From: an uncultured Planctomycetales bacterium
GTDB taxonomy: Bacteria > Omnitrophota > Gorgyraeia > Gygaellales > Profunditerraquicolaceae
Direction: 5' to 3'
Length of the DNA: 64,000 nt
Assembly: GCA_964645795.1 (NCBI GenBank)
Contig: CAZYCL010000003.1
Location: 101,771 to 165,770 of the forward strand
This document shows, one piece after another, positions 20,195 to 33,070 of the stretch. A model generated the notes under the pieces. It was not told where the DNA came from, did not search any database, and saw nothing but the letters and a program-made list of their open reading frames with translations. Position 1 is the stretch's first letter. Each line of letters begins with the position of its first letter. The position numbers were made by a program, and so were the translations under genes.

Positions 20195-20204
20195 TGAGCG
20201 CCTC

Positions 20205-20240
20205 CTAATAAAAAACCTACTCTTCTTAAAGTAGGTTTTC
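20205..20240 (-). terminator. Intrinsic terminator hairpin (expression platform) between the riboswitch aptamer and the RBS
   Basis: Minus-strand RNA: AAAACCUACU-UUAAGAAG-AGUAGGUUUU followed by UUUUUUAUU, i.e. a 10-bp stem, 8-nt loop and U-tract. GGAGG and the AUG follow immediately. Confidence 0.7.
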
Positions 20241-20244
20241 GGAC

Positions 20245-20340
20245 GCTAGAGTTTTCGGTAGCCTGACTACCCGTGTCGCTGTCGGGCTCACGGCTTTGCG
20301 TCCTCTCCTTGCGAAGAGTTTGCCTTTATCGAACAATATT
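20245..20340 (-). promoter_or_regulatory. c-di-GMP-I (GEMM) riboswitch aptamer
   Basis: Minus-strand RNA: ...GGCAAAC-CUCUUC-GCAA-GGAGAG-GACGCAAAGCC-GUGAG-CCCG-ACAGCGACA-CGGG-UAGUCAGGCUACCGA... Compared with the Vibrio cholerae Vc2 aptamer (...GGCAAACC-AUUC-GAAA-GAGU-GGGACGCAAAGCC...UACCGA), GGCAAAC and GACGCAAAGCC are identical and there is a 6-bp P1b hairpin capped by a GNRA tetraloop (GCAA). A second hairpin and the 3' UACCGA follow. Confidence 0.8.
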
Positions 20341-20353
20341 ATGACCCTAATAA

Positions 20354-20381
20354 ATTATAACATATTTAAATAAATATTCAA
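20354..20381 (-). promoter_or_regulatory. Sigma-70-like promoter for the riboswitch transcript (-35 TTGAAT, 16-nt spacer, -10 TATAAT)
   Basis: Reverse complement of 20354-20381 reads TTGAAT-atttatttaaatatgt-TATAAT. The predicted TSS lies a few nt upstream of the aptamer P1 region. Confidence 0.55.
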
Positions 20382-20527
20382 TCCATTCTATGCCATTCGT
20401 TCAAGGTATTTATGTTGTTATTTATTGTGCCCCAACAGATTAGGACAAAGGCCATTGATATCCCAAGGGCTGGGCGCATAATTAATATTTCTTGACTAAA
20501 CCGATAAAAAAGGTAATAATTCATTAG

Positions 20528-21067
20528 ATGGCCAAATATACGCTTCTGGTTCTGATGTTCCTCCTGTGCATCTTTTCTACGGCATCGCCCATTTCTTACC
20601 AGGATAAAAGGCGAGTGGAGGAGGAGAATAGAAAGAGCCTTGATCATAGCGAAAGGCCGTTTCACCCGCCAAAAAACGCCCCCTCACCAGACGAAGATGA
20701 CCCCAGTGACCTAAGGTACCTCAAAGGACTAAGAAACAAGGAGTTTTCTACTTTTGGCGACTGCCTTCAGCTCCTGCGCATACTGTTAGGCAAAAAAGAG
20801 TTGGTCGATAAGCTTGTTTCGGATGCCAACTTAAGCCTATCGCCTGAATCGGCCCTGACAAGAGGGATTGCTGCCGTACTCTTCTGCCGAGCGCTTGAAA
20901 TAAAAGGCGGGGTTTTGCTTCGGGTATTTGGCCTCAGCCAGCGCTACGCCTTAAAAGAGCTTGTTTACCTGGATATATTTGCCCCGGGACCTTTAGATAG
21001 CGTCATAAGCGGTGCAGAGCTGATTTCAGTGTTCAGCAACTGCGCAGCATACTTATTAAATAAATGA
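20528..21067 (+). CDS. Hypothetical exported protein
   Basis: 179 aa with an N-terminal signal peptide (MAKYTLLVLMFLLCIFSTASP) and no recognisable catalytic motif. It overlaps the next gene by 4 nt, suggesting an operon. Confidence 0.55.
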   Translation: MAKYTLLVLMFLLCIFSTASPISYQDKRRVEEENRKSLDHSERPFHPPKNAPSPDEDDPSDLRYLKGLRNKEFSTFGDCLQLLRILLGKKELVDKLVSDANLSLSPESALTRGIAAVLFCRALEIKGGVLLRVFGLSQRYALKELVYLDIFAPGPLDSVISGAELISVFSNCAAYLLNK

Positions 21068-22452
21068 GGCTCAGGCCCAGTCTGATGCTTATATGCTTCT
21101 TAGCCGCAACAGCCGGTGCGCAGGCAGATCCTTCGGTTAAGAGGATTGAGGAGGGGGCGCGGGAGGCCTTAAGCCGTACAGAAGCCAATTACAGACCGCC
21201 AAACAGTCGGCTGGCCATTGACTACGGGGGATGGCTCAATTTCAGGTATATTGACTACAACCAAGATGATAACGACCCCGCGCTTAGAGACGAAATAGAT
21301 TATCGCTTCTGGCAGGATAGCCGCCTATGGGCAAAGGTCAACTTTGACCCGGACAGCTCAGGGCTTAAAAATACGCATTCTTTGTATGTGAGGATCAAGA
21401 ATCTTTATTCTGTCAGCCGGCCCAACGAGACTGCCGGAAGTTCTGATAACGACGGGGTTCACCTTGATTATGCCTATTTAGAGCTTGACCTGCAACCTGT
21501 TTGGGTTAAGGCAGGAAGGCAGTATTTCAGCGTGGGCCAGGGCATTGCTTACTCCGATGTAGGTGACGGGCTCCAGTTCACGCTTGAACGGCATAAGCTT
21601 TCACTTAAGACTTTTTTCTCCCAATCCCTGCCACGAGAGGACAATATCGATACCAGCGCCCCAGGTTACGATAAACACTCCAGGCGCCAATTCTTCGGCG
21701 CAGAAGCCAGTTATAAGCCGACGGAAAACCAAAGTTTTTATGCCTTTACGGTCATCCAGAGAGATAAAAGTAAAGAGTATCCCGATGACCCCGAGCACGA
21801 CTTCAAATACGATTCTGAATACTACGGAATGGGCTTGCGCGGCACTCTTCTGCGCCCGGTCTCTTACTGGTGGGGCGTAATCCTGGAAAAAGGCAAAAGC
21901 TATATTTATGAGACCAACGAAAGAAAGGATGTGCTGGCTTGGGCCAATGTCCTGGCGATATCCTACGAGCCCGCCGTCTATTCCCACCCGAACTTCTACT
22001 TTAAGTACGCTTACGGTTCGGGGGATAAGGACAGGGTTAACGTCACCAATACCGAGGACGGTAATTCCTTCGGTAAAGATAGAAACTTCCTGTATTTCGG
22101 CTTTATCCCTACGGGCTACGCGCTTTCACCCCAGCTATCCAACCTGCAGTTTTTAAAAGGCGGTTTTACCTTTAAGCCTTTTGAGAAAAACAGGTTTTTG
22201 AAAGGCCTGTCTTTAGGCCTGGATTATTACAGGTATTTTAAAGCAGAGCCAAGCGGTGGCATTTATGACGAAGAGGCGTCTGAAGAGAGCTTTGATGTCG
22301 GCCATGAGGTCGATCTGACCGTAGACTGGCAGGTGTTTTCCGATCTGAATCTGTCTTTTGAATACGGGCGCTTTATGCCCGGAAAGGCATTTGCGCCTAG
22401 CTCAGGGCACAGCGAGGATTACCTATCCATAAGTACGACGCTCACTTTTTAA
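21064..22452 (+). CDS. Putative outer-membrane beta-barrel protein (porin/export-like), hypothetical
   Basis: 462 aa. Signal peptide ([21 protein letters not shown]). Alternating aromatic/hydrophilic beta-strand patterns throughout. C-terminal ...SISTTLTF ends in Phe, an OMP beta-signal. Confidence 0.6.
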
Positions 22453-23444
22453 TGAGAGCAAAAACATGGATATTGGCAGTTTTAATGATCGTATTTAGCG
22501 CAGGGGCATGCATGGCCGGCCAAAAAATACGCATTTACAACGCGCAAAGCAAGAAGATTGAAACGGTTGAGAAGGTTGCCAACTCCGAAGAGGAATGGAA
22601 AATAATATTAACGCCTGAGCAGTTTGAGGTAATGCGCAGAAAAGGCACCGAGCCGCCGGTCAAGGGCAAATGCGATTTACCCGACCAGGCAGGCATCTAT
22701 AGATGCGCCGGATGCGGCACTGACCTTTTTGAGGTAGGCGCAAAGTTTGAGTCCGGCACGGGCTGGCCGAGCTTCTGGCAGCCGGTTTCAGGGCTTAACG
22801 TCGCAACCCGCCATGATGAGAGCTTCGGTATGAGCCGCACAGAGGTCTTATGCGCCAGATGCGACTCCCATCTTGGCCATGTATTTGACGATGGGCCGCC
22901 CCCTACCGGCAGGCGTTATTGCATAAACTCCATAGCCCTGCAATTTGTGCCGCTAGCAAAGGGCAGCGAATCAGCAACTTTTGCGGCGGGATGCTTTTGG
23001 GGGGTAGAGGAGGCTTTCCGCGCCCTCAACGGCGTCTTGAATACCCGCGTAGGATATACCGGAGGCAGGTCAGCAAATCCTTCCTATGAGGATGTTTCAA
23101 GCGGCAAAACCGGCCATGCCGAGGCCGTGGAAGTAGAGTTTGATCCCGGCAAAACCTCGTATAAAGAGCTCTTAAAGGCCTTTTGGTCAATTCATGACCC
23201 TACTACCGTTGACAGGCAGGGTCCTGATACAGGAAGCCAATACCGTTCGGCTATCTTCTATCATAACCGCCAGCAGGAGTACGAAGCCCGACTATATTTG
23301 AAAGAGCTTCAGAGTTCGGCTAAATTCAAAGGGAGGATCGTCACTCAAATACTTGCGGCAGGCAACTTTTATCCTGCAGAAGAATACCACCAGCGCTACT
23401 TCCAAAAGCGCGGCATGGCGAGGAACTGCCATATAGCTGAATAA
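22452..23444 (+). CDS. msrAB: Exported bifunctional peptide-methionine sulfoxide reductase MsrB-MsrA fusion
   Basis: 330 aa with a signal peptide. The MsrB half has two CxxC pairs (CAGCGTDLF...[18 protein letters not shown]). The MsrA half has the [12 protein letters not shown] active site. Confidence 0.88.
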
Positions 23445-23899
23445 TGTTGAACTCCGGCTCTATTAAAGGTATAATTTACTCAATGGACATCATTAGGCAG
23501 ATACCTTCCGATCTTATGGCTGCGCAAAGGTTTATAAGCTACGCTGCCGAAGAGATAAAGGCCCTTCCTTTCACGGCAGAGCAACTTTACGATATCAGGC
23601 TATCCCTGGAAGAAGCGATCGTAAATTCGATAAAACACGGGAATAAATTCAAGGACGGCCTTTTTGTCACGGTGCGCTTAAAAGATAACGGGGACGGGCT
23701 TACTATCATTGTTTGCGACCAGGGCCAGGGTTTTGATTACTGCAATATTCCTGATCCGACCAGGCCTGCCAACCTTCAAAAACCTTCGGGAAGAGGCGTA
23801 TTCCTTATGCGCAGCCGCATGGATGAGATCCAGTTCTCTGACGGAGGCCGCTCGATAAAGATGCTGAAGCTTTTCAATAAGCAGGGAGGTAGCAAGTGA
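23444..23899 (+). CDS. RsbW/SpoIIAB-family serine-protein kinase (anti-sigma-factor-type HATPase)
   Basis: 151 aa with N-box EAIVNSIKHG, G1 CDQGQGF and G2 SGRGVFLM (HATPase_c_2). The start could instead be the Met at 23483. There is a 1-nt TAATG overlap with msrAB. Confidence 0.75.
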   Translation: MLNSGSIKGIIYSMDIIRQIPSDLMAAQRFISYAAEEIKALPFTAEQLYDIRLSLEEAIVNSIKHGNKFKDGLFVTVRLKDNGDGLTIIVCDQGQGFDYCNIPDPTRPANLQKPSGRGVFLMRSRMDEIQFSDGGRSIKMLKLFNKQGGSK

Positions 23900-24228
23900 A
23901 AATATCCCAAGACAGAATATCGGATGTGGTTATCTGCGTCCCTGAGGGAGAGGTGAATATCTCAAACTCCCCGGAACTTAGAAAACGTTTCGATGAATTG
24001 ATCAATAAAAGCGAGAAGAAGGTGCTGGTGGATTTTTCTGCCATCTCCTACATTGACAGCTCGGGGCTGGCCACGTTGATAGAGCTGTATCAGAGGTTAA
24101 AGAAGATCGGCGGGCGCATGAGGTTTTGCTCGATGGAAGAGAAGGTAAGAAACACCTTCGAAATCACCAAGCTTAACAAGCTATTCGAGATATTCCCGGG
24201 CCGACAGGAAGCCTTGAGGGACTTCTGA
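23896..24228 (+). CDS. STAS-domain protein (anti-sigma-factor antagonist / MlaB-like)
   Basis: 110 aa with the SpoIIAA-type phospho-serine motif DFSAISYIDSSGLATL. It sits directly upstream of mlaE. Confidence 0.8.
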   Translation: MKISQDRISDVVICVPEGEVNISNSPELRKRFDELINKSEKKVLVDFSAISYIDSSGLATLIELYQRLKKIGGRMRFCSMEEKVRNTFEITKLNKLFEIFPGRQEALRDF

Positions 24229-25016
24229 TGATAGAGGGCATCGGCAAAACGATCATAGGTTTTTTTGTATGGGCCGGGGATATATTAAAGCTCTTATCAA
24301 AGGTCGTTTACTGGATAATCATCGGCCCCTTTAAAGGCAAACCAGTGCATAGCGACAGCGTATTCAACCAGATGGCCTTTGTGGGGCTGCGGTCTATAAT
24401 CATCGTCTTCTTCGTAGATATGTTCACCGGCATAGTCCTGGCCATGCAGAGCGCATACCAGCTTGAGAAGATGGGCGCCGTAATCTATGTTGCTTCGCTT
24501 GTAGCGGTGTCCCTGTGCCGGGAGCTAAGCCCGGTATTGACGGGCCTGGTAGTTGCCGGCAGGGCCGGCTCTTCCATTGCCGCAGAGCTTGGTACGATGA
24601 AGGTCACCGAACAGATCGAGGCCTTGAGCACCATGTCGATCGATCCGGTGCGTTTTCTTGCGGTCCCCAGGTTTCTTGCATTGCTGGTCATGTTGCCGTG
24701 CCTGGTCGTCCTTGGCAATCTTTCCGGCATACTCGGGGGTTTTATCGTAGGCACCACAAGCCTTAACATAAACCCCGATCTCTATGTCCAGACCATGTTT
24801 AAATACCTGGCCATAAAGGATATTTATACCGGGCTTATAAAAGCGGCAGTTTTCGGAGTGATCATTGCGTTGGTCTCCTGCCACGAAGGCCTGAACGCCA
24901 AAGGCGGGGCCGAAGGGGTCGGCAAGGCTACTACGGCTAGCGTCGTCTCCAGCTTCATACTTATCATACTCTCGGACTGCCTGATTACCGCGATCTTCTA
25001 CTTCTCAAAGATATGA
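24228..25016 (+). CDS. mlaE: Phospholipid ABC transporter permease MlaE
   Basis: 262 aa MlaE/YrbE/Ttg2B-family permease with 5-6 TM segments. Confidence 0.85.
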   Translation: MIEGIGKTIIGFFVWAGDILKLLSKVVYWIIIGPFKGKPVHSDSVFNQMAFVGLRSIIIVFFVDMFTGIVLAMQSAYQLEKMGAVIYVASLVAVSLCRELSPVLTGLVVAGRAGSSIAAELGTMKVTEQIEALSTMSIDPVRFLAVPRFLALLVMLPCLVVLGNLSGILGGFIVGTTSLNINPDLYVQTMFKYLAIKDIYTGLIKAAVFGVIIALVSCHEGLNAKGGAEGVGKATTASVVSSFILIILSDCLITAIFYFSKI

Positions 25017-25831
25017 GTAAAAAAGAGCCGATACTTTCTTTACAGGGTGTCACAAAATCATTCCTGGGAAAGCCCGTGATCGATAATGTCAGCTTTGATG
25101 TTTTTGCCGGCGAGACTTTTGTGATCATGGGCTGTTCCGGTTCGGGAAAGAGCACGCTGCTGCGCCTGATGAACGGCACTATTGCTCCGGATAAAGGGAC
25201 CGTGCTCATCAAAGGCAAGGACATTTACAATATCCCGGCGCAGGAGCTTGGCGACATTAAAAAGAGCTTCGGCATGCTTTTTCAGTACTCTGCCCTGCTG
25301 GATTCTCTTACGGTAGAAGAGAACATTGCCCTGCCCCTCAGGGAGCACTCAAGGCTGGCGGATGAGATCATCGACATAATCATCAAGATGAAGCTGTCTT
25401 TGGTTGGGCTGCGCGGATATGAAAAGTATTATCCGTCGCAGATCTCAGGCGGCATGCGCAAACGCGTAGGGCTTGCCCGCGCGATAGCGCTTGACCCCGA
25501 TATAGTCTTTTATGATGAGCCTACATCCGGGCTTGACCCGGTGGTCGCAGCCATCATCGACAAGCTGATCAAGGATCTGAGCGCCAAACTCCTCATCACA
25601 TCCGTTGTCGTTACTCACGACATGCAGAGCGTATTTGAACTGGCTGACAGGGTTGCCATGGTGCATAAGGGAAGGGTTGTCGAAGTAGGCAGCGCAAAAG
25701 AGATACGGCATTCCTCCAATCCCTATATACAACAGTTTATTAACGGCAGGCCCGAGGGGCCGATAGATTTCTTTAAGGACGACGCCGGGATCATCGAGTA
25801 TCTCGGGTTACAGGAAGAGGGGAGCTTATGA
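25013..25831 (+). CDS. mlaF: Phospholipid ABC transporter ATP-binding protein MlaF
   Basis: 272 aa with Walker A GCSGSGKST, signature LSGGMRKRVGLAR and Walker B IVFYDEPTSGLD. Confidence 0.88.
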   Translation: MSKKEPILSLQGVTKSFLGKPVIDNVSFDVFAGETFVIMGCSGSGKSTLLRLMNGTIAPDKGTVLIKGKDIYNIPAQELGDIKKSFGMLFQYSALLDSLTVEENIALPLREHSRLADEIIDIIIKMKLSLVGLRGYEKYYPSQISGGMRKRVGLARAIALDPDIVFYDEPTSGLDPVVAAIIDKLIKDLSAKLLITSVVVTHDMQSVFELADRVAMVHKGRVVEVGSAKEIRHSSNPYIQQFINGRPEGPIDFFKDDAGIIEYLGLQEEGSL

Positions 25832-26379
25832 AAAAACATACGAACGAATTCAAGGTAGGTGTATTTGCGCTTCTTTGTCTTGCGGGCCTGCTCTATTTGA
25901 CCGTATCTACAGGCAAGCTCTCTTTCGGCAGCGCCGGATATCCGATAAACGTCGTTTTTGACGAAATAGCCGGGCTTGACAAGAAGGCGCCGGTGATGCT
26001 TAACGGCCTGGAGGTCGGCAAGGTCAGCGACATCGATGTATCCTACGAAGGGGAGAGGACACTGATAAAGCTCTGCCTGAAGATTGACAAGGATGTCAAG
26101 ATCCGGCAGGGCTCGCGCGTCTTTATTAAAACGCTAGGGCTTATGGGCGAGAAGTATATACAGATCGCCTCGTCAGAGAACCCCGAGTTCCTTTTGCCAG
26201 GCGATACCATTGAAGGCCAGCCTTACGCGGACATGGATATCCTCATATGCAATCTGAACAGCACGCTTGAGGATAACAATGAGCGTTTCGCAAATATTGC
26301 CAAAAACTTCGAAGCCTTCAGCGACGACATAAGAAAACATCCCTGGAAGCTATTGATCAAGACCAGGGAAAACAGGTAG
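25828..26379 (+). CDS. mlaD: MCE-domain periplasmic substrate-binding protein MlaD
   Basis: 183 aa with an N-terminal TM anchor, then an MCE domain (VVFDEIAGLDKKAPVMLNGLEVGKVSDI). Confidence 0.85.
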   Translation: MKKHTNEFKVGVFALLCLAGLLYLTVSTGKLSFGSAGYPINVVFDEIAGLDKKAPVMLNGLEVGKVSDIDVSYEGERTLIKLCLKIDKDVKIRQGSRVFIKTLGLMGEKYIQIASSENPEFLLPGDTIEGQPYADMDILICNLNSTLEDNNERFANIAKNFEAFSDDIRKHPWKLLIKTRENR

Positions 26380-26399
26380 CGCAAGAAAAACGGAGGTGC

Positions 26400-27197
26400 A
26401 TGTTGAAGAAGATTATTTTTAGCTGGACGTTGATTTTATTTTTATCGCTAGGCTGTGCTTGGGCCGAATCTGCAAAGATAATCGATCTTGAAGGACAGGT
26501 TTTCCTGAAAAATACGCCTAAGTCGCAATGGGCTGCCGCCAGGCTTAATGACGAGGTCAATGGCGCTTCAGAGATCAAGACGCAAAAGGGCGCCTATTGC
26601 ACTATCAGTTTTGATGCGGCAAGGAAAAATTTGGTAACTATAAAAGAAAATTCCTCGATCAGGGTGGATAGTATCAAGCCGGGCAGGATTTTTTTGCCTA
26701 AAGGCAGGGTGCTTTCATTGATTAGGCAGGCATCGAGAAACCAGGTTTTCGAGGTGCGGACGCCTACGGCAGTTGCCGGGGCGCGCGGGACAGGCTGGCT
26801 AACCGATTCTGACGGGACGCAGACTCAGGCGCAGTGTTTCGAGAACATGATTTTCGTTCAGGGCCTGGATGAAGACGGCAATGTAACCGATGAAACCGAT
26901 CTAGAAGAGGGGATGGGGTTAAATGTTTCCAGGGGCGGCGGATTGGGGCAAAGCCGGCCGCTCGATGAGTCTGATTTTAACGAATGGAATGATTTTTCCG
27001 GATATGCGCAGGATGTATCCTCAGGCGGATCCGGCCAGGGAGGCGACAATAACCCGATAAATACCCCTGGCGGCCTGCAGGATCTAAGAGACGATCAACG
27101 TAATGATTTGCGCGGGAATTTCTTAGAGGAAAACAGAAAAGGAGAGATAACCGACATTAAGGATGAAGAGGGGGGCGGTTATCTGGTGGAGGAGTAG
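26400..27197 (+). CDS. Exported FecR-domain protein with an acidic Gly/Asp-rich C-terminal tail
   Basis: 265 aa. Signal peptide, then a FecR-like beta-sandwich pattern (...VRTPTAVAGARGTGWLTD...). C-terminal low-complexity D/E/G-rich region. Confidence 0.6.
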   Translation: MLKKIIFSWTLILFLSLGCAWAESAKIIDLEGQVFLKNTPKSQWAAARLNDEVNGASEIKTQKGAYCTISFDAARKNLVTIKENSSIRVDSIKPGRIFLPKGRVLSLIRQASRNQVFEVRTPTAVAGARGTGWLTDSDGTQTQAQCFENMIFVQGLDEDGNVTDETDLEEGMGLNVSRGGGLGQSRPLDESDFNEWNDFSGYAQDVSSGGSGQGGDNNPINTPGGLQDLRDDQRNDLRGNFLEENRKGEITDIKDEEGGGYLVEE

Positions 27198-27236
27198 GCG
27201 AAAGGGTTCTTCTTCTAAACATATAAAGGAGCTTGC

Positions 27237-28247
27237 ATGCATTCGAAAAAATTGCTGATTTCGGTCGTAGTTTTGGCGTTGGTTTGTTTATTCGCGCATT
27301 ACCCGTGTTTCTCTCAGGTAGAAGAAGACAAAGAAAGCCGCCAGCCGCAGAGGCAGATGTTACGAAAGGCCAAACCTTACAAATTCAGCAGTTCGGCTTC
27401 GGTTTTTGGCGGTTACGATACCAACGTCAAGCTTGTTCCGCAAGGCAAAGGCTCGGCTTTCCAGGAATTCCTGTATTCGCTATACTTTGATAAGCCTCTT
27501 TCCGGAGGTTTCAGGCTAAAGTTATACTATGACCTGGATTATCTTAACTATAGCGAAATTACCGATTCCTCTAACCTGATGAACCACTTAAGGCTCGACC
27601 TTAGCAAAAAGCTCGATAGGAAGTTCAGCGTGGGAACGGGCTACGATTTCTCCGATTTCTATTATCCCAAGAACGAAGACGGAGATTTCCTTTTTCATAA
27701 AGGGTTTGTGTATCTAAGGCATGATATTTCCCGCAGCCTGTTCCATCGTGTTTTGTTCGAATACGGCTACAAAGCCCACGTTCATAAAAAAGCGCTGGCT
27801 GATTCAATAACCGAGTTATCGGATAAAGAGTCGTCCGACAGAAGGCAGGTAGTCGAGTATACCGTCGGCTGGCTCGCCAGCCGCGATCTTTATCTTAATT
27901 TGAGAACCAGGTTCTCCATAAACAACGCAAACGCGCGCTACATGGATTTCTACGATTACAACTCTTATGAGATCTCGCCCGCTTTAAACTACAGGCTATG
28001 CCCTAAAGCAATCCTTAGCGCATACTTTTCGTATTTGCGCAGAGAATATAAGAGCCGGCTGCTTAGTACCGGAGGGCAGAAGACGCAAAAGGACAACGTC
28101 TGGGCCCCCAATGTGGGTATCCGCTACAATATTAACAAGCAGGTCAGCACATCTCTTTTTTATACCTATCGCAATAACTGCACCAACGAACCCTTAGAAA
28201 AATATAAGGAAAGCGTATTTACCTGGGGGTTGGAGTACAGCTTCTAA
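27237..28247 (+). CDS. Putative outer-membrane beta-barrel protein
   Basis: 336 aa. Signal peptide (MHSKKLLISVVVLALVCLFA), amphipathic beta-strand repeats, and C-terminal WGLEYSF ending in Phe. Confidence 0.6.
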   Translation: MHSKKLLISVVVLALVCLFAHYPCFSQVEEDKESRQPQRQMLRKAKPYKFSSSASVFGGYDTNVKLVPQGKGSAFQEFLYSLYFDKPLSGGFRLKLYYDLDYLNYSEITDSSNLMNHLRLDLSKKLDRKFSVGTGYDFSDFYYPKNEDGDFLFHKGFVYLRHDISRSLFHRVLFEYGYKAHVHKKALADSITELSDKESSDRRQVVEYTVGWLASRDLYLNLRTRFSINNANARYMDFYDYNSYEISPALNYRLCPKAILSAYFSYLRREYKSRLLSTGGQKTQKDNVWAPNVGIRYNINKQVSTSLFYTYRNNCTNEPLEKYKESVFTWGLEYSF

Positions 28248-28251
28248 CCCC

Positions 28252-30144
28252 ATGGTCATCTCAAGCCTCATTTTTAAAAAAACAGCCCCCGTGCTTTTAG
28301 GGGCGTTTTTTGTTCTGGTGCTTGCCTCGGGCAGGTATCTGGACGGTCCGGAGATCTCCTCCTATGACCTAAGGATGGCCATGAGGCCGGCGCTTAAGGT
28401 CTCTGACAAGATCGTGATCATCGAGATCTCCGACGACACGCTTAAAAACCTCGGGCTTTGGCCCCTGCCCAGGGATTTCCACGCCACCATTACCGCAGTT
28501 TTAAAAGAAGCCGGCGCAAGGGCCCTGGTCTTTGACATCCTTTTCAGCGAGCCCTCTGTGTATGATAAAGAGTTTGCCGAAACCTTAAAGGATTTCGGCA
28601 GGGCATATCTGGGGGTGGCTTTTGATTCCGGGGTATCCAAAAATCCGCGGCTGCTTGCCGGTATTGCGCCGCAGCTAACAGGGGCAGCCTGCGCAATAGG
28701 CCACATCAATACGGTAGTTGACGCTGACGGCAAGATCAGAAAGGTGCCTGTTTTTGTCTCTGGCGGCAGCGCAAAAACCCCTCAACTCGGTTTTAAAGTC
28801 GCCTGCGATATCCTGGGGCTGGATATATCAAAATCAAGGCTTAGTGCAGGCGCCTTAATCATCGATGGCCGCATGAAGCTGCCCCTGGTGGACGATAAAT
28901 ACCTGTTGGTGAATTATCCCGGCCGCTGGCAGGATTCTTTTCTGCACCTTTCATACTTTGATATCCTCGATTCTTACAACCAGCTTATCGATGGCAAGGC
29001 CCCCCGCATAGACCTCTCGGTCCTGAAGGATAAAATATGTTTTATAGGGCTGACCGCCACCGGCACTTCCGACTTTCAGCCTGTTCCGCTTGAAAACGTC
29101 TATCCGCTGGTAGGGCTGCAGGCAAGCATCACAAACAGCCTGCTTAATAACAATTTTATCCATCGGGCCTCCAGGGGCATTAACGCCCTTATCGCTTTGC
29201 TGATCTTTTTCTTAAGCCTCTATGCCTGTTTGAAGTTTGCCCCGCTGAAGGCGCTGCTTAATAACATTGTGCTGGGCAGCGTCTACTTCGTTATTGCCTG
29301 CCTGTTGTTTGTCCTTTACGGGGTCTGGGTCGACCTGTTTTTGCCGCTGGCAGTGGTTTTTGCGCTGTATTTGACGCTTACCGTCCGGCGGTTCTTCATC
29401 GAGAACAGATTAAGGCAGCTTTTGGAAAAAGAGCTGGAGATCGCCCGCTCCATCCAGGAAAGCTTCCTGCCGGATAAACCGGCAATAACCGAAGGCTTGG
29501 GGCTCCACAGTCATTTATCGGCGGCAAAGTTTGTCGCGGGCGACCTCTACGACCTGGTGGCGCTTGGCGACAGGAGCGCCGGAATGTTTATCGCTGACGT
29601 AGCCGGAAAAGGGGTTTCCGCATCCCTGGTCATGGCTCAGGTGATCTCGCTTTTCAGGATATACTCCCGCCAGTATCATGATTGCGCCAGGGTATTGGGC
29701 CTTCTCAATGAAGAGCTTTGCAGCAGGGAGTCGCTTCGTTTTGTGACCGCCCTCTATATAATAATCGATACCGCAAAGAAAACCGTCTCTGCTTCTTCGG
29801 CCGGCCACGGGCCCCTGTTGATTTATCGAGGTTCTTGTGTGACGGTAGAAGAAGCCTGCCTTGATCAGGGGTTGCCTTTGGGGATTGAGAAGAATGCGGG
29901 GTATCGGAATGTTGAATTCACCGTCAGCCCCGGAGACAGGCTTATGATATTTACCGACGGACTTCCTGAGTCCAGGAACCGCAAGCGTCAGGAGTTCGGC
30001 ACGGAAAGGATCCGGGATATCCTTATTAAATCCGGGGCAAAAGATGCCGGTGGGATATCGCAGGCAATAATGGAAGAGGTGGCCAGGTTTTGCGCCGGCG
30101 CCGCCCAGCATGACGACATAACCCTGCTTGTCGGGGCAGTGTAA
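28252..30144 (+). CDS. CHASE2 sensor domain - transmembrane - PP2C (SpoIIE/RsbU-type) serine phosphatase
   Basis: 630 aa. Periplasmic CHASE2-like domain (residues ~30-300), three or four TM helices, then a PP2C catalytic domain (FVAGDLYDL...FIADVAGKGVSASLVMAQ...FTDGLPE). Confidence 0.8.
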   Translation: MVISSLIFKKTAPVLLGAFFVLVLASGRYLDGPEISSYDLRMAMRPALKVSDKIVIIEISDDTLKNLGLWPLPRDFHATITAVLKEAGARALVFDILFSEPSVYDKEFAETLKDFGRAYLGVAFDSGVSKNPRLLAGIAPQLTGAACAIGHINTVVDADGKIRKVPVFVSGGSAKTPQLGFKVACDILGLDISKSRLSAGALIIDGRMKLPLVDDKYLLVNYPGRWQDSFLHLSYFDILDSYNQLIDGKAPRIDLSVLKDKICFIGLTATGTSDFQPVPLENVYPLVGLQASITNSLLNNNFIHRASRGINALIALLIFFLSLYACLKFAPLKALLNNIVLGSVYFVIACLLFVLYGVWVDLFLPLAVVFALYLTLTVRRFFIENRLRQLLEKELEIARSIQESFLPDKPAITEGLGLHSHLSAAKFVAGDLYDLVALGDRSAGMFIADVAGKGVSASLVMAQVISLFRIYSRQYHDCARVLGLLNEELCSRESLRFVTALYIIIDTAKKTVSASSAGHGPLLIYRGSCVTVEEACLDQGLPLGIEKNAGYRNVEFTVSPGDRLMIFTDGLPESRNRKRQEFGTERIRDILIKSGAKDAGGISQAIMEEVARFCAGAAQHDDITLLVGAV

Positions 30145-30170
30145 TCTCAGGATAATAACCGGGAGGGACC

Positions 30171-30560
30171 ATGGCCCTACGCACCAGAACCGAAAAGAGG
30201 ACAGAGGAAGGCGTATGCATTATTTCCTGTTTAGGGTCTCTGGATTCATCAACCTATCAGGAGCTTGAAAAAGAGATCGAAAGGGCTTTGAACATATTCC
30301 CGAAGCTGGTGATGCTCGATTTTAAAGAGCTTGATTACATAAGTAGTATCGGCGTCTCCGTGGTCTTAAAAGGCAAAAAGAGCATGGAAGAAAGAGGCGG
30401 CCAGCTTATCCTGGCAAATCTTCAGCCCCAGGTCAAGAAGGTCCTGGATATAATCAAAGCCATACCTTCCCATGCGGTATTTAAAGATGTGGATGAGCTG
30501 GACGCTTACCTTTACCGGATCCAAAAGAAAGAGCTGGAAAAAGACAAGCCGCCGCTCTAA
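30171..30560 (+). CDS. STAS-domain anti-sigma-factor antagonist-like protein (second copy)
   Basis: 129 aa with the conserved Ser in [17 protein letters not shown]. Confidence 0.78.
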
Positions 30561-30585: not shown

Positions 30586-31602
30586 ATGCCTAAGACAAAG
30601 ATAGTTTCTACCATAGGCCCTTCATCTGCCGCAGCTGGAGTTTTACGCAGGATGATGCTTGCCGGTATGGATATCGCGCGATTGAACTTTTCGCACGGCA
30701 GCCACGAATTCCTCCAAGGCTGCATTTTCAGGATCCGCCTCTTAAACCGCAAATACCGCCGCCATGTACGCATACTCGCTGACCTGGAAGGCCACCGTGT
30801 GCGCATAGGCAGGTTCGGAAAAGTTAAAGAAATACCTCTTAAAAAAAGACAATCGTTGATTCTTTCTAGTAAGCCTACTTCGTCCGCAAGTCCAGTAATC
30901 CCCTTTGATTACAGGGGCAGCCTGCGCGACATACCAAAAGGTGTATTTATTTATATTGACGACGGGAATATCTGCCTTAGGGTGACAAGGGTCACCGGGG
31001 ATTACGTCCGGACAGAGGTGGTGACGCCAGGAGTCCTTAAGGAGAGAAAAGGAGTCAATATCCCCCAGGCCAACCTTAAATTCCGCGGGACCAGCCCTAA
31101 AGACAGGGATGATATCGCTTTTGCTATAAAGCATAAAGTCGATTTTATCGCTCAGTCTTTTGTCTGCAGTTCTAAGGACCTGCTGGCTGTGATGAGGCTG
31201 GTCAGGCCCGGCCTTGCGGGCTGTCGAGTGATCGCCAAGATCGAAAACCGCCAGGGTATCAATAATATTGACAGCATCATAAAGGCAGCTGACGGAATAA
31301 TGATCGCAAGGGGCGACATGGGCGTTTCCATACCGTTATATGAGGTTCCGATCGTGCAGAAGGTTATCATCAAAAAGTGCAATGAAGCGGATAAGCCCGT
31401 GATTACCGCTACGCAGATGCTGGAGAGCATGACCGAGAATAGGCGTCCAACGAGGGCCGAGGTTGCCGATGTGGCCAACGCGGTTTTGGACGGTTCGGAT
31501 TGCCTTATGCTGTCAGCGGAGACTGCGGTAGGCAAATACCCGGTTGAAAGCGTGGAGATGATGAATAAAATTATTTCTTATACTGAGAAATCGCTGATTT
31601 AG
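30586..31602 (+). CDS. pyk: Pyruvate kinase (short form lacking the C-terminal allosteric domain)
   Basis: Start at the ATG at 30586 ([14 protein letters not shown]...), in frame with the track ORF 30472 whose N-terminus overlaps the STAS gene. PK motifs present: [24 protein letters not shown]. Confidence 0.85.
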
Positions 31603-31617
31603 GAGGGTCTGACTTAA

Positions 31618-32304
31618 CTATCCGTGATAGCCCAGGCCTTTTTCGCGGGCGAGCCTGTCACTGACATACTTTGCTAGCCTGTCCTGCTCTTCAGAGCTTA
31701 TGTCGATAAGCTTTATGCCGTAGTACCATTTATCCGCCTTCAAGAATTCGCTCTTCCAGACTATCCTGCCCATGTACTCGGTATTATTTACCTCGGGCAG
31801 CTTTATGGCGATCTTTGCCCCATCTTCATACTTGGTCCTGGAGATAAGCAGCAGGCCGCCGGCCCCCAGATTTTTGGTTACGCCTTCATCATAATCCTGG
31901 AAAATGTTGGGATACTCCTGGGTATAAGCTTTGATTACGTGCTCCATCCGGAAGAACCGTCTTCTGTCCTTGTGGGGCCTGAAGCTTCTGGGCCTGCTCA
32001 ACACCCACAGGTATACGGGCTGCTCAACGGTCTCTTTAAATTTGACCTCGGATTTAAAGTACTGGTCACCCCTAAGGACAAATACCTCGATCCTCTGGTC
32101 CGGGAGGGATTCCATGGATTCTACCTCATGAGGGCTTATGCCGCCTATATAGATATTCTCCTGGTCCCAGTCTTCGATGCGGCTGACAAGGGTCCGCTGA
32201 GAATCGCCTATACGCAGGAATATGCTTTGGTGAGGCGATATTTTATCGTCAAGCTTCTCGACTTTGCTTTCTGCTAACTTCTTAAAAAGATTTACAATTT
32301 CCAT
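31618..32304 (-). CDS. YcgR-like c-di-GMP-binding protein (PilZN + PilZ domains)
   Basis: 228 aa with PilZ signatures RRRFFR (RxxxR) and NLGAGGLLL (D/NxSxxG). Confidence 0.75.
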   Translation of the reverse strand: MEIVNLFKKLAESKVEKLDDKISPHQSIFLRIGDSQRTLVSRIEDWDQENIYIGGISPHEVESMESLPDQRIEVFVLRGDQYFKSEVKFKETVEQPVYLWVLSRPRSFRPHKDRRRFFRMEHVIKAYTQEYPNIFQDYDEGVTKNLGAGGLLLISRTKYEDGAKIAIKLPEVNNTEYMGRIVWKSEFLKADKWYYGIKLIDISSEEQDRLAKYVSDRLAREKGLGYHG

Positions 32305-32389: not shown

Positions 32390-33070
32390 TTAGTCGCTTT
32401 CCGCAGCGCCTTTGGCCAGCCTGTCCTTTACATATGAATCGAGCTTATGCAATGCTTCAGGGCTGATGTTCAGAAATTTCATGCCGTAATACCATTTATC
32501 ATATTTGGGGGAAGGGCTTTTCCAGAGGGTATGGCCTAAAAACTCGTATTTACATATATCCGGGAACTTAAGCACGATCTTTGTCCTTAGGTCAAAGCTG
32601 TTTCTGGATATGAGCATCGCTCCGCCCAGGCAGATATTCTTGACCATCGTCTCTTCGTAATCCTGGAAGATGTTCGGATATTCCTGTATAAAGGTTTTGG
32701 CTACATTCTCCAGGCGGTAGCACTGCCTCCTGTCCTGGTGCACAACGAACTTTTTAGGCATACTCAGCACCCACAGGTATATCGGCTGCTCGATCATTTT
32801 AATAAAGAACACTTCCGATCTATAATAGGAGCCGCCTATAAGGATGAAGAGCTCTATTTTCTGTCCGGGGTAGGGAACGGCAAAGTGGTTCTCATCGCTG
32901 CTTATGCCGGAGACGTGGATCCTGTCTTCGTACCAGTCTTCTATGCGGGAAACCAGGGTCTGAGGAGAGGCGCCGAAGCGTATAAACAAGCTTTGGCGCA
33001 GCTTCACCTTGTCCTGAAGCCTGAAAGAACTGTTTGCCGGCATTCTCTGAAAAAACCGCATAATATTCAT
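32390..33070 (-). CDS. YcgR-like PilZ-domain protein, tandem paralog of 31618-32304
   Basis: 226 aa, collinear with the neighbouring paralog. PilZ motifs RRQCYR and NICLGGAML. Confidence 0.72.
   Translation of the reverse strand: MNIMRFFQRMPANSSFRLQDKVKLRQSLFIRFGASPQTLVSRIEDWYEDRIHVSGISSDENHFAVPYPGQKIELFILIGGSYYRSEVFFIKMIEQPIYLWVLSMPKKFVVHQDRRQCYRLENVAKTFIQEYPNIFQDYEETMVKNICLGGAMLISRNSFDLRTKIVLKFPDICKYEFLGHTLWKSPSPKYDKWYYGMKFLNISPEALHKLDSYVKDRLAKGAAESD

What the first reader, a model, noticed from the sequence alone, without database searches (positions are those of the whole stretch)
23444..30560. Partner-switching phospho-module (RsbW-like kinase, two STAS proteins, CHASE2-PP2C phosphatase) embedded around an MlaEFD lipid transporter and two OMPs
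One tightly packed plus-strand operon, with gaps or overlaps of 0-40 nt, encodes these genes in order:
- exported MsrBA;
- an anti-sigma-type Ser kinase;
- a STAS protein with the phosphorylatable IDSSG serine;
- MlaE, MlaF, MlaD;
- a FecR-like exported protein;
- a beta-barrel OMP;
- a CHASE2-sensor PP2C phosphatase;
- a second STAS protein.
No sigma factor is present. MlaB in the canonical Mla system is a STAS protein that binds MlaF. Here the STAS partner comes with a dedicated kinase and an extracytoplasmic-signal-sensing phosphatase, suggesting that reversible STAS phosphorylation gates the Mla ATPase in response to envelope signals. I am not aware of this regulatory arrangement for Mla being described.
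Basis: inference. Interest (0 to 1): 0.7.

Follow-up and report, generated by a model that had tools for sequence, protein, structure and literature searches.

The report
Phospho-switch wired to Mla lipid transporter
In an uncultured Omnitrophota bacterium, and in dozens of its relatives, the genes for an Mla-type membrane-lipid pump are fused into one operon with a small STAS protein, a kinase that should phosphorylate it and a sensor phosphatase that should reverse this, which looks like the long-suspected but never found on/off switch for this pump.

Summary
Window 23444-30560 (+) encodes an RsbW-like Ser kinase, STAS1 (D54-S55-S56-G57), MlaE, MlaF, MlaD, an exported FecR-domain protein, a beta-barrel OMP, a CHASE2-PP2C phosphatase and STAS2, with overlaps of 1-4 nt or gaps of at most 39 nt. 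No sigma factor was found in the 64 kb.

The arrangement is not chance. STAS1 relatives (named ones all Omnitrophota) have mlaE directly downstream in 36/37 metagenome contigs and the kinase directly upstream in 39/43. A PP2C follows mlaD in 15/17 loci, although kinase identity falls to 23-52%. In rearranged loci the kinase moves with the phosphatase, whose sensor can be GAF instead of CHASE2, while STAS stays next to mlaE. One clade member is a STAS-MlaE fusion.

[quoted passage not shown] About 60 STAS-less MlaFs lack it.

Best reading (inference, no biochemistry): STAS1 acts as a MlaB-like subunit, and reversible phosphorylation of S55 gates the transporter. By sequence and fold, however, STAS1 is a SpoIIAA/RsbV-type antagonist, not a MlaB ortholog. 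I found no prior description. I rate it a new variant of known kinds.

The parts
20455..20520 (+). Two best promoter-like sites upstream of the first gene of the operon
   Evidence: each matches 10 of 12 consensus positions, in the only sizeable intergenic gap (20195-20527). Consensus match only.
20528..21067 (+). Exported 179-aa protein, no family; first gene of the operon (window-specific, not part of the conserved module)
   Evidence: N-terminal hydrophobic segment, no Pfam hit, 4-nt overlap with the next gene.
21064..22452 (+). Alginate_exp-like outer-membrane beta-barrel (window-specific)
   Evidence: PF13372, E 7.6e-22. Not found next to the module in other loci.
22452..23444 (+). Exported bifunctional MsrB/MsrA methionine sulfoxide reductase (window-specific)
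   Evidence: NF004042 359.8 bits against a cutoff of 330; signal-like segment at residues 3-26. Other loci have accA, GATase_7 or DUF748 at this position.
23444..23899 (+). RsbW/SpoIIAB-type GHKL serine kinase (151 aa)
   Evidence: PF13581, E 5.9e-23. N box EAIVNSIKH, G1 DQGQGF, G2 GRGVFL; best solved relatives are SenB 9qih and RsbW 6m36; directly upstream of STAS in 39 of 43 relatives.
23896..24228 (+). STAS1, the proposed MlaB-like subunit and kinase/phosphatase substrate. Predicted phospho-acceptor is Ser55 (codon 24058-24060) in D54-S55-S56-G57.
   Evidence: alignment with SpoIIAA S58 and MlaB T52. DSSGLAT invariant in Mla-linked orthologs. AF2 pLDDT 94.3, closest fold is SpoIIAA bound to SpoIIAB; also matches P. 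aeruginosa MlaB 7ch8_K, E 7.6e-4.
24228..25016 (+). MlaE permease
   Evidence: PF02405, E 4.4e-80; TIGR00056 254 bits against a cutoff of 212; member of a monophyletic STAS-linked MlaE clade.
25013..25831 (+). MlaF-like ABC ATPase
   Evidence: best NCBIfam hit is MlaF PRK11831, E 6.4e-68 (229 bits, below the equivalog cutoff of 441). PF00005.
25733..25828 (+). C-terminal extension of MlaF (QQFINGRPEGPIDFFKDDAGIIEYLGLQEEGSL), the E. coli-type 'handshake' tail
   Evidence: tail shared by 22 of 24 STAS-linked MlaFs and absent from about 60 STAS-less ones; in E. coli, Y261, L265 and L266 of this tail dock at the MlaF-MlaB groove.
25828..26379 (+). MlaD (single N-terminal TM segment plus MCE domain, 183 aa)
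   Evidence: PF02470, E 4.3e-20; TM at residues 7-31.
26400..27197 (+). Exported FecR-domain protein (accessory; probable periplasmic partner of the CHASE2 sensor)
   Evidence: PF04773, E 1.3e-10. Present in 8 full modules and absent in at least 6. FecR+CHASE2 pairing is known in Burkholderia and Pseudomonas.
27237..28247 (+). Outer-membrane beta-barrel protein (accessory; always found together with the FecR gene)
   Evidence: PF10082 27.1 bits against a cutoff of 23.7. Signal-like N-terminus and C-terminal F. Co-occurs with FecR in L002, L091, L113, L126, L128, L132, L135 and L170.
28252..30144 (+). Membrane CHASE2 sensor fused to a PP2C (SpoIIE-family) Ser phosphatase
   Evidence: PF05226, E 7e-47 (aa 20-323); PF07228, E 2.6e-44 (aa 441-627). 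TM at residues 5-30 and a cluster at 306-383; catalytic motifs intact. Follows mlaD in 15 of 17 loci.
30171..30560 (+). STAS2, a second STAS with a retained Ser (Y56-I-S58-S59-I-G61) and a C-terminal tail; accessory orthogroup
   Evidence: orthologs in L171 (37%), L090 (45%) and L091 (49%), placed either after the phosphatase or before the kinase. Absent from most modules.
30586..31602 (+). Pyruvate kinase, co-oriented with a 25-nt gap; probably co-transcribed, but not part of the conserved module
   Evidence: PF00224, E 5e-112. Not found at this position in other loci.

Best explanation
This is a partner-switching phospho-module whose output is an MlaFED-type ABC lipid transporter rather than a sigma factor.

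Shown by sequence and comparison:
- The operon encodes a catalytically intact RsbW-type Ser kinase, a SpoIIAA-type STAS protein with the canonical acceptor Ser (S55), MlaE, MlaF, MlaD, and a membrane CHASE2-PP2C phosphatase.
- The set kinase + STAS + mlaEFD + PP2C is inherited as a unit across a large Omnitrophota clade.
- STAS is always the gene next to mlaE.
- The cognate MlaF carries the MlaB-groove-docking C-terminal helix known from E. coli.

Inferred:
- Unphosphorylated STAS1 binds the helical subdomain of MlaF, as MlaB does in E. coli. There MlaB is needed for MlaF stability, for assembly and for ATPase activity, and a T52E phosphomimic weakens binding. STAS1 binding would likewise keep the transporter assembled and active.
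- The same alpha-2 face carries S55 and is also the docking face for the kinase, so STAS1 switches between MlaF and the kinase.
- Free STAS1 is phosphorylated on S55 and can no longer bind MlaF, which turns the transporter off.
- The PP2C domain resets STAS1. It is controlled by the periplasmic CHASE2 domain, helped where present by the FecR-domain protein and the OMP. A periplasmic or outer-membrane cue would therefore switch lipid transport on.
- STAS2, present only in a subclade, is most likely a second substrate or competitor that tunes the kinase/phosphatase balance.
For: - Domains and motifs.
- Acceptor Ser aligned to SpoIIAA S58 and MlaB T52, and invariant in orthologs.
- Synteny: mlaE directly after STAS in 36/37 contigs and kinase directly before it in 39/43, with kinase identity only 23-52%. 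Full modules in L002, L091, L113, L126, L128, L132 and L170; mlaD followed directly by PP2C in L009, L093, L109, L119, L123 and L171.
- The STAS-linked MlaEs form a single clade.
- Rearranged loci keep STAS next to mlaE while the kinase pairs with a GAF-PP2C (L135, L145).
- STAS-MlaE fusion L045 lies inside the clade. Such fusions were noted by Thong 2016.
- MlaF tail GPIxFF....Y(L/I)(E/D)xL aligns without gaps to E. coli G250...Y261..L265-L266. It is present in 22/24 STAS-linked MlaFs and in none of about 60 STAS-less ones. Its role at the MlaF-MlaB groove is described.
- The plain Omnitrophota operons truly lack STAS.
- Most modules contain only one STAS, so STAS1 is the only available substrate.
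- In E. coli, MlaB T52 lies at the centre of the MlaF interface, T52E weakens binding, and phosphoregulation is called an open question.
- No sigma factor in the window.
Against:
- STAS1 fails the MlaB equivalog model (27.7 bits against a cutoff of 90). Its fold is closest to SpoIIAA/RsbV, with no MlaB chain among the top 50 structural matches.
- Two STAS-linked MlaFs (L008, L170) have a short tail without the terminal helix.
- In E. coli, deleting the tail did not abolish MlaF-MlaB binding, and a shorter tail exists in Veillonella without MlaB. The tail is therefore supportive evidence, not proof.
- L116 shows kinase-STAS-CHASE2/PP2C with no mla gene on its 4.3-kb contig, so the switch can exist on its own.
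- L007 and L008 lack a phosphatase in the operon.
- A sigma factor or other target could be encoded elsewhere in the genome.
Confidence: 0.6

Rival explanations
1. This is a conventional partner switch with a distal target. The kinase is an anti-sigma (or anti-X) factor for a protein encoded elsewhere, STAS1 is merely its antagonist, and the mla genes are co-transcribed cargo of the same stress regulon with no physical STAS1-MlaF contact.
For: STAS1 meets the anti-sigma-antagonist superfamily model (TIGR00377, 77 bits against 53). Its fold is closest to SpoIIAA in complex with SpoIIAB. The kinase resembles RsbW and SpoIIAB. L116 has the three switch genes without mla. Only 64 kb of the genome is visible.
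Against: - No sigma factor is in the window or in any of the annotated module loci.
- STAS stays adjacent to mlaE even when the kinase moves away (L135, L145).
- A STAS-MlaE fusion exists in the clade.
- The MlaF tail co-varies with the presence of STAS.
- Co-transcribed cargo would not be expected to keep this exact junction while kinase identity falls to 23-52%.
Confidence: 0.15
2. The information flows in the opposite direction, with the transporter acting as the sensor. STAS1 is a constitutive MlaB-like subunit that is released from MlaF according to the transport or ATPase state. Once free, it captures the kinase and so liberates a kinase-bound effector. The Mla system would then report lipid flux to a downstream response.
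For: This uses the same synteny, tail and fusion evidence that STAS1 is a MlaF partner, plus the classical logic in which the kinase sequesters an output (established for SpoIIAB and RsbW). STAS2 could be the output-side antagonist.
Against: No candidate effector is conserved in the module. The dedicated sensor domains (CHASE2 or GAF) sit on the phosphatase, which argues that the signal enters through the PP2C and not through the transporter.
Confidence: 0.1
3. STAS1 is a constitutive, unregulated MlaB analogue, and the kinase and phosphatase act on STAS2 or on another substrate. STAS1 phosphorylation would then be irrelevant.
For: The window has a second STAS with a retained Ser right after the phosphatase. 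E. coli MlaB keeps Thr52 without any known kinase.
Against: STAS2 orthologs are confined to a subclade (window, L171, L090, L091). Most complete modules (L002, L009, L109, L119, L123, L126, L132, L170) have the kinase and PP2C but only STAS1. The kinase gene overlaps STAS1 by 4 nt. DSSGLAT is invariant in kinase-linked STAS1s, whereas the kinase-less fusion L045 has NEPG.
Confidence: 0.08
4. FecR and the OMP are not sensor accessories. They are the periplasmic and outer-membrane parts of the transport route, standing in for the missing MlaC and MlaA.
For: There is no MlaC or MlaA in the operon, MlaD is short at 183 aa, and the FecR and OMP genes sit directly after mlaD.
Against: The FecR-OMP pair is absent from many otherwise complete modules (L009, L093, L109, L119, L123, L171). 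A FecR-domain protein next to a CHASE2 sensor is a recurrent pairing in unrelated two-component operons.
Confidence: 0.07

Closest known systems
E. coli / P. aeruginosa MlaFEDB with the STAS subunit MlaB (Thong 2016, PMC5016091; Kolich 2020, PMC7367683; PDB 7ch8)
   Same: It has MlaE, MlaF and MlaD plus a single-domain STAS protein encoded in the same operon. MlaF carries a C-terminal 'handshake' tail with the Tyr/Leu/Leu-type helix. A Ser/Thr sits at the position equivalent to MlaB T52, which lies at the centre of the MlaF interface.
   Different: - STAS1 is a full SpoIIAA-type STAS (110 aa, DSSG) and not a MlaB ortholog (NF033618, 27.7 bits against 90).
- Gene order is STAS-E-F-D instead of F-E-D-C-B.
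- There is no MlaC or MlaA in the operon.
- A dedicated kinase and a sensor phosphatase are part of the unit. No such kinase or phosphatase is known for any characterised Mla system.
B. subtilis SpoIIAA/SpoIIAB/SpoIIE and RsbV/RsbW/RsbU partner-switching systems
   Same: It has the same three protein families: a GHKL Ser kinase, a STAS substrate with the acceptor Ser in DSSG, and a PP2C phosphatase with an N-terminal sensor. The STAS1 fold matches SpoIIAA bound to SpoIIAB at TM 0.87.
   Different: No sigma factor is present. The conserved neighbour, and the proposed alternative partner of STAS, is an ABC-transporter ATPase. The phosphatase input is a periplasmic CHASE2 domain, or GAF in some relatives.
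Partner-switching-like modules with non-sigma outputs, e.g. Anabaena HenR / Alr3423 / STAS-glycosyltransferase All4160 (PMC13555669) and Vibrio fischeri SypE-SypA (PMC10120452)
   Same: Reversible Ser phosphorylation of a STAS domain by an RsbW-type kinase and a PP2C directly controls an envelope-building machine rather than transcription.
   Different: The controlled machine here would be an MCE/Mla ABC lipid transporter, reached through a free-standing STAS subunit. The whole circuit is encoded in one operon with its target.
Chlamydia Rsb system (RsbU with a periplasmic sensor domain, RsbW, two STAS proteins RsbV1 and RsbV2, disputed target) - recalled from my own knowledge, not checked here
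   Same: It has a membrane PP2C with a periplasmic sensor, one kinase, two STAS proteins, and no clearly cognate alternative sigma factor. It also occurs in a PVC-related lineage.
   Different: The Chlamydia genes are dispersed and not linked to mla. The sensor domain is not CHASE2.
FecR-domain protein + CHASE2 histidine kinase operons of Burkholderia and Pseudomonas (PMC5192318)
   Same: An exported FecR-domain protein is encoded next to a CHASE2 membrane sensor.
   Different: The output there is a histidine kinase and response regulator. Here it is a PP2C phosphatase acting on a STAS protein, and an OMP accompanies the FecR gene.

Membership tests
Partner-switching system (RsbW/RsbV/RsbU, SpoIIAB/AA/E type) | GHKL-type Ser kinase (HATPase_c_2) with N, G1 and G2 boxes | tested here: met
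   PF13581, E 5.9e-23. EAIVNSIKH, DQGQGF, GRGVFL. RsbW 6m36, E 9e-9.
Partner-switching system (RsbW/RsbV/RsbU, SpoIIAB/AA/E type) | Single-domain STAS protein with a conserved phospho-acceptor Ser/Thr at the start of helix alpha-2 | tested here: met
   TIGR00377, 77 bits against 53. D54-S55-S56-G57 aligned to SpoIIAA S58 and invariant in 42 orthologs. STAS fold, with S55 at the start of helix H55-70.
Partner-switching system (RsbW/RsbV/RsbU, SpoIIAB/AA/E type) | PP2C/SpoIIE-family phosphatase with intact metal-binding aspartates | tested here: met
   PF07228, E 2.6e-44. GDLYD430, DVAGKG449, FTDGL567, DDIT621.
Partner-switching system (RsbW/RsbV/RsbU, SpoIIAB/AA/E type) | A sigma factor (or other output) sequestered by the kinase and encoded with the module | tested here: not met
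   No sigma-70-family ORF in 64 kb. None in the Pfam-annotated flanks or in homologous modules. The rest of the genome was not visible.
Partner-switching system (RsbW/RsbV/RsbU, SpoIIAB/AA/E type) | Actual phosphorylation and dephosphorylation of STAS, and mutually exclusive partner binding | not testable with these tools
   This needs biochemistry or a multimer prediction.
Mla (MlaFEDB) lipid ABC transporter | MlaE-family permease | tested here: met
   PF02405, E 4.4e-80; TIGR00056 254.3 bits against a cutoff of 212.2. The E. coli-specific model NF033619 is not reached (193 against 315).
Mla (MlaFEDB) lipid ABC transporter | MlaF ATPase with the C-terminal 'handshake' extension | tested here: met
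   best hit is MlaF PRK11831, E 6.4e-68 (229 bits, below the equivalog cutoff of 441); 33-aa tail GPIDFF...IIEYL aligned to E. coli residues 250-266.
Mla (MlaFEDB) lipid ABC transporter | MlaD: N-terminal TM anchor plus MCE domain | tested here: met
   PF02470, E 4.3e-20. TM at residues 7-31. The equivalog TIGR04430 is not reached (86.8 against 135).
Mla (MlaFEDB) lipid ABC transporter | MlaB: STAS subunit orthologous to proteobacterial MlaB | tested here: not met
   NF033618, 27.7 bits against 90; no MlaB chain among the top 50 fold matches. There is only a weak direct match to P. aeruginosa MlaB 7ch8_K, E 7.6e-4. A MlaB-like role is inferred from context, not from membership.
Mla (MlaFEDB) lipid ABC transporter | Periplasmic MlaC and outer-membrane MlaA | tested here: not met
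   None of the operon proteins hits PF05494 or PF04333. The rest of the window was not scanned with Pfam. Grasekamp 2023 reports that these components are sparsely distributed outside Proteobacteria.
Mla (MlaFEDB) lipid ABC transporter | Physical STAS-MlaF complex and phospholipid transport | not testable with these tools
   Only indirect evidence is available: synteny, fusion and tail co-variation.
CHASE2 membrane sensors | Periplasmic CHASE2 domain between TM1 and a C-terminal TM cluster, upstream of a cytoplasmic output domain | tested here: met
   PF05226, 160.6 bits (aa 20-323); hydrophobic segments at 5-30 and 306-383, followed by PP2C at 441-627.

The most novel reading that the evidence does not exclude
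This would be the first natural example of an ABC lipid transporter switched on and off by partner switching. A MlaB-like STAS subunit toggles between the MlaF ATPase and a dedicated kinase. A trans-envelope sensing arm (OMP, FecR-domain protein and CHASE2-PP2C, or a cytoplasmic GAF-PP2C in relatives) sets its phosphorylation state. It would also imply that the MlaB-MlaF partnership and SpoIIAA-type phospho-switching share a common origin. The Thr52 of proteobacterial MlaB would then be a relic, or a still-unrecognised site, of such regulation. In ultra-small and possibly host-dependent Omnitrophota, the switch might gate lipid exchange in response to envelope or contact cues.
Probability: 0.5. 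Interest if true: 0.8.

Novelty: new variant of a known kind. Interest (0 to 1): 0.68.

Why it matters
How MlaB controls the Mla transporter, and whether its conserved Thr/Ser is ever phosphorylated, has been an explicit open question since the E. coli biochemistry and MlaFB structure papers (Thong 2016; Kolich 2020). No kinase or phosphatase was known, so the idea could not be tested.

This module supplies natural candidates for all the parts in one operon: kinase, phosphatase, STAS and a transporter with the matching MlaF tail. It is replicated in dozens of sequence-diverse versions, including variants with different sensors and a Ser-less fusion as a built-in negative control. That makes the hypothesis directly testable with recombinant proteins.

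More broadly, it would add an ABC transporter to the short list of non-sigma outputs of partner-switching systems. It would also give a first functional context for CHASE2/FecR sensing. All these genes are currently annotated only as 'anti-sigma B factor antagonist', 'ATP-binding protein' or 'STAS domain-containing protein'.

Tried and rejected
- **Kinase as the anchor for synteny.** The word-indexed search returned only 30 heterogeneous RsbW-like proteins, and 4 of the 5 contexts examined had no STAS or mla nearby. I switched to MlaE and STAS1 as anchors.
- **Possible linkage in other phyla.** Thermoanaerobaculia (L055, L056, L063, L066) and Calditrichota (L086) have a STAS-kinase pair 1-7.5 kb from mlaE. 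The intervening genes are unrelated (Rce1-like protease, sugar transferase, glycogen debranching enzyme, peptidase/Omp85) and their MlaFs lack the tail. I rejected these as chance proximity. The L061 alphaproteobacterial PP2C-kinase fusion plus STAS, 5 kb away on the other strand, was not pursued.
- **The lower-scoring STAS relatives in the metagenome scan** (L134, L136, L138-144, L147-166) have unrelated neighbours (HAD hydrolase, glycosyltransferase, GYF_2). They serve as an outgroup and are not part of the module.
- **STAS1 monomer model and PDB fold search.** These confirmed a SpoIIAA-type fold but cannot discriminate between partners.
- **Hidden STAS in the 'plain' Omnitrophota mlaEFD operons.** None is present. 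A large gene abuts mlaE directly (clpC-like in L013; no Pfam hit in L017 or L024), and radA or PIN-TRAM genes follow mlaD.
- **Source organism.** The exact-protein look-up gave only assembly and run accessions (GCA_020047475.1, ERR4519279, ERR4519286). The assignment to Omnitrophota rests on named relatives.
- **Literature.** Searches for any kinase or phosphatase linked to MlaB, MlaF or MlaE, and for the 'SenB' structure, returned nothing relevant.

Full report
**1. What is in the window**

The stated interval holds nine plus-strand genes. Their identities are:
- 23444-23899: an RsbW/SpoIIAB-type GHKL Ser kinase (PF13581, E 5.9e-23).
- 23896-24228: STAS1 (PF01740, E 3.3e-23; anti-sigma-antagonist superfamily TIGR00377, 77 bits against a cutoff of 53).
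- 24228-25016: MlaE (PF02405, E 4e-80).
- 25013-25831: an ABC ATPase whose best NCBIfam hit is MlaF.
- 25828-26379: MlaD (PF02470).
- 26400-27197: an exported FecR-domain protein.
- 27237-28247: a beta-barrel OMP.
- 28252-30144: a CHASE2 + SpoIIE/PP2C membrane phosphatase.
- 30171-30560: STAS2.

The catalytic signatures are intact: the N, G1 and G2 boxes in the kinase, and GDLYD, DVAGKG, FTDGL and DDIT in the PP2C domain. The CHASE2 domain lies between TM1 (residues 5-30) and a hydrophobic cluster (306-383), so it should be periplasmic with the PP2C domain cytoplasmic.

Gene junctions are overlaps of 1-4 nt from 20528 through mlaD, and gaps of 4-39 nt after that. The transcription unit therefore starts upstream of the stated range. 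It begins with an exported 179-aa protein, an Alginate_exp-like OMP and an exported MsrBA, with the best promoter-like sites at 20455-20520. It probably continues into pyruvate kinase.

No sigma-70-family ORF is detectable in the 64 kb. The only corrections are the operon's true extent and the fact that one of the 'two OMPs' lies outside the given coordinates.

**2. Is the arrangement conserved?**

The kinase was a poor anchor: its few retrievable homologs sit in unrelated contexts. One of them, L002, did show the identical eight-gene order with different flanks.

I then anchored on MlaE in species-representative genomes and annotated the loci with profile searches.
- The nearest MlaE relatives are Candidatus Omnitrophota MAGs.
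- The three closest (L007, L008, L009; 57-74% identical MlaE) all have kinase-STAS-mlaE-mlaF-mlaD.
- About 30 other Omnitrophota loci have a plain mlaEFD. There a large gene abuts mlaE, so no STAS can be hidden.

Next I anchored on a STAS1 ortholog alignment in metagenomes, which gave 52 further contigs of the same module.
- Where the contig leaves room, mlaE follows STAS directly in 36 of 37 cases.
- The kinase directly precedes STAS in 39 of 43 cases.
- Kinase identity to the window is only 23-52%, and PP2C-domain identity is 33-53%.
- A PP2C phosphatase follows mlaD in 15 of the 17 loci that extend far enough. It follows either directly or after a FecR-OMP pair.

STAS1 has 301 cluster-level relatives in the large protein database. 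All the named ones are Omnitrophota, including *Ca.* Aceula meridiana, whose contig carries the complete module.

In an MlaE tree, the 32 STAS-linked transporters form one clade.

**3. Evidence that STAS1 belongs to the transporter**

Four independent lines point the same way.

(a) Rearranged loci. In L145 the order is STAS-mlaEFD-PP2C-kinase. In L135 it is PP2C-kinase-cNMP-binding protein-FecR-OMP-STAS-mlaE. In both, STAS stays immediately upstream of mlaE and the kinase travels with the phosphatase. The phosphatase in these loci has a GAF sensor instead of CHASE2. Swapping of the input domain with a constant STAS-mlaEFD output is what a genuine signalling circuit aimed at the transporter would show.

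(b) A fusion. The single apparent 'non-STAS' member of the clade, L045, is a STAS-MlaE fusion protein (PF01740, 28.4 bits against a cutoff of 22.6). The acceptor motif there is NEPG, and no kinase is on the contig. Thong et al. [quoted passage not shown]

(c) The MlaF tail. [quoted passage not shown]
- 22 of 24 STAS-linked MlaFs end in GPIxFF(Q/K)xxxxY(L/I)(E/D)xL(I/T/F). This aligns without gaps to E. coli G250-P251...Y261...L265-L266. The window's version reads GPIDFFKDDAGIIEYLG.
- None of the roughly 60 STAS-less MlaFs has it. The plain Omnitrophota proteins end in 'GPIT...'.
- Caveats: L008 and L170 have a shortened tail. In E. coli the tail is not required for MlaB binding as such. A shorter tail also exists in Veillonella, which has no MlaB.

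(d) Direct sequence match. STAS1 matches the MlaB chain of the P. aeruginosa MlaFEDB structure by sequence (7ch8_K, E 7.6e-4).

**4. Evidence that STAS1 is the kinase and phosphatase substrate**

- The acceptor Ser (S55 in D54-S55-S56-G57) aligns with SpoIIAA S58, RsbV S56 and MlaB T52. The DSSGLAT motif is invariant in every kinase-linked ortholog.
- The AlphaFold model (pLDDT 94.3) is closest to SpoIIAA in its complex with the kinase SpoIIAB (TM 0.87-0.88), then TM1442 and RsbV.
- The kinase gene overlaps STAS1 by 4 nt.
- Most complete modules contain no other STAS.
- STAS2 is a separate orthogroup (YISS(I/M)G, NLQPQ(I/V)K, and a C-terminal Q(K/R)KE(I/L)EK tail). It is restricted to the window's subclade and is placed either after the phosphatase or before the kinase. 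It is therefore accessory.

**5. Mechanism proposed (inference)**

In E. coli, MlaB is required for MlaF stability, for assembly with MlaED and for ATPase activity. T52 sits at the centre of the MlaF interface, and T52E weakens binding. The authors call MlaB phosphoregulation 'an open question'.

Transferring this to the module gives the following scheme.
- Unphosphorylated STAS1 binds MlaF and keeps the pump assembled and active.
- The same alpha-2 face is the kinase docking face, so STAS1 switches partners.
- Free STAS1 is phosphorylated on S55 and excluded from MlaF.
- The sensor PP2C resets it.

In the window, the input is the periplasmic CHASE2 domain. It is probably assisted by the exported FecR-domain protein and the OMP. 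FecR-domain proteins encoded next to CHASE2 sensors are a recurrent pairing in Burkholderia and Pseudomonas. The FecR-OMP pair is dispensable in many modules, which argues against it being part of the transport route.

The rivals are a distal sigma or other target, reverse signalling from the transporter, and STAS2 as the true substrate. None is excluded, but each conflicts with part of the comparative data. They are weighed in the structured fields.

**6. Comparison with known systems and novelty**

As a family matter, the kinase, STAS and PP2C meet the defining features of a partner-switching system, except for the sigma-factor output. MlaE, MlaF and MlaD meet the family-level but not the E. 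coli-equivalog models. STAS1 fails the MlaB equivalog model (27.7 bits against 90) and is SpoIIAA-like by fold. It therefore 'works like' MlaB by context but is not a member of that family.

Partner-switching modules with non-sigma outputs are known, for example Anabaena HenR/Alr3423 acting on a STAS-glycosyltransferase and SypE/SypA. MlaB-like STAS genes in synteny with mla outside Proteobacteria have been counted.

What I could not find described anywhere is a kinase/phosphatase pair genetically wired to an Mla transporter. The library covers open-access papers and bioRxiv only. I therefore rate this a new variant of known kinds.

The interest is fairly high because it turns a stated open question in the Mla field into a set of straightforward in vitro experiments. 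Natural controls are available: the Ser-less fusion, the GAF variants, and the plain paralog-like operons.

**7. Limits**

- Everything beyond domain content is comparative inference.
- I could not run a multimer prediction.
- I could not see the rest of the genome. A distal sigma factor, a second plain mlaEFD, and MlaA or MlaC therefore remain unknown.
- The collection scans were truncated at 600 candidate stretches, so the frequencies describe the sampled loci and not all genomes.
They serve only as alignment references and probes.

Noticed in passing
window 31618-32304 (-) and 32390-33070 (-); 33202-33570 (+): Two tandem paralogous PilZN+PilZ (YcgR-like) c-di-GMP receptor proteins lie immediately downstream of the operon on the opposite strand. 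A stand-alone receiver-domain response regulator follows them.
   Followed up: no
window 17850-19784 (+): A hybrid histidine kinase (HisKA-HATPase_c-REC, 644 aa) lies just upstream of the operon region.
   Followed up: no
window 19799-20194 (-): A small exported protein with a KDKKDKKDKKDK repeat and no family match is divergently oriented from the operon's promoter region.
   Followed up: no
L045 4890-6020 (+): This is a STAS-MlaE fusion protein in a high-GC Planctomycetota-labelled MAG, inside the STAS-linked MlaE clade. The acceptor motif is NEPG (no Ser), no kinase is on the contig, and a Roadblock/LC7 gene lies upstream.
   Followed up: yes
L135 928-5324; L145 9929-14568: These variant modules have a GAF-PP2C phosphatase instead of CHASE2-PP2C, with the kinase placed next to the phosphatase. 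L135 also inserts a cNMP-binding protein between the kinase and FecR, hinting at cyclic-nucleotide input.
   Followed up: partly
L116 331-4093: Kinase-STAS-CHASE2/PP2C sit together without any mla gene, followed by a subtilase, on a 4.3-kb contig. The STAS has DSSGLATI. This is either a stand-alone version of the switch or a locus with mla elsewhere.
   Followed up: partly
L007 8042-9259; L008 12645-17462; L171 4564-8199: The neighbours of the module vary. A DUF748 (AsmA-like clan) protein lies directly upstream of the kinase in L007. Giant ORFs of 1605 aa (L008) and 1211 aa (L171), with essentially no Pfam match, flank the module.
   Followed up: no
L013 7477-13520; L017, L024, L025 equivalents: The plain (STAS-less) Omnitrophota mlaEFD operon sits in a housekeeping neighbourhood, with clpC-like upstream (L013) and radA or PIN-TRAM (yacL-like) downstream. 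Whether module-bearing genomes also keep this copy is unknown.
   Followed up: partly
L008 10833-11618; L170 10181-10969: Two STAS-linked MlaFs from a subclade with GATase_7 upstream have a shortened tail (GPMDLFKEP / GPIDLFKEPE) that lacks the terminal hydrophobic helix found in the other 22.
   Followed up: partly
L055, L056, L063, L066 (Thermoanaerobaculia); L086 (Calditrichota): A STAS-kinase pair lies 1-7.5 kb from mlaE in several loci of other phyla. It is separated from mlaE by unrelated genes (Rce1-like protease; sugar transferase, glycogen debranching enzyme, peptidase/Omp85), and the MlaFs lack the tail. I judged this chance proximity.
   Followed up: yes
window 23444-23899 (kinase): The best solved-structure match of the kinase is chain 9qih_A, 'SenB' (304 aa, E 9e-10), ahead of RsbW. 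I found no paper describing SenB in the library.
   Followed up: partly
L113 12353-12718 (-); L128 18517-18882 (-): A third type of STAS gene (YLDSAGL) sits on the opposite strand about 2 kb downstream of the phosphatase in two full modules. It is distinct from both STAS1 and STAS2.
   Followed up: no
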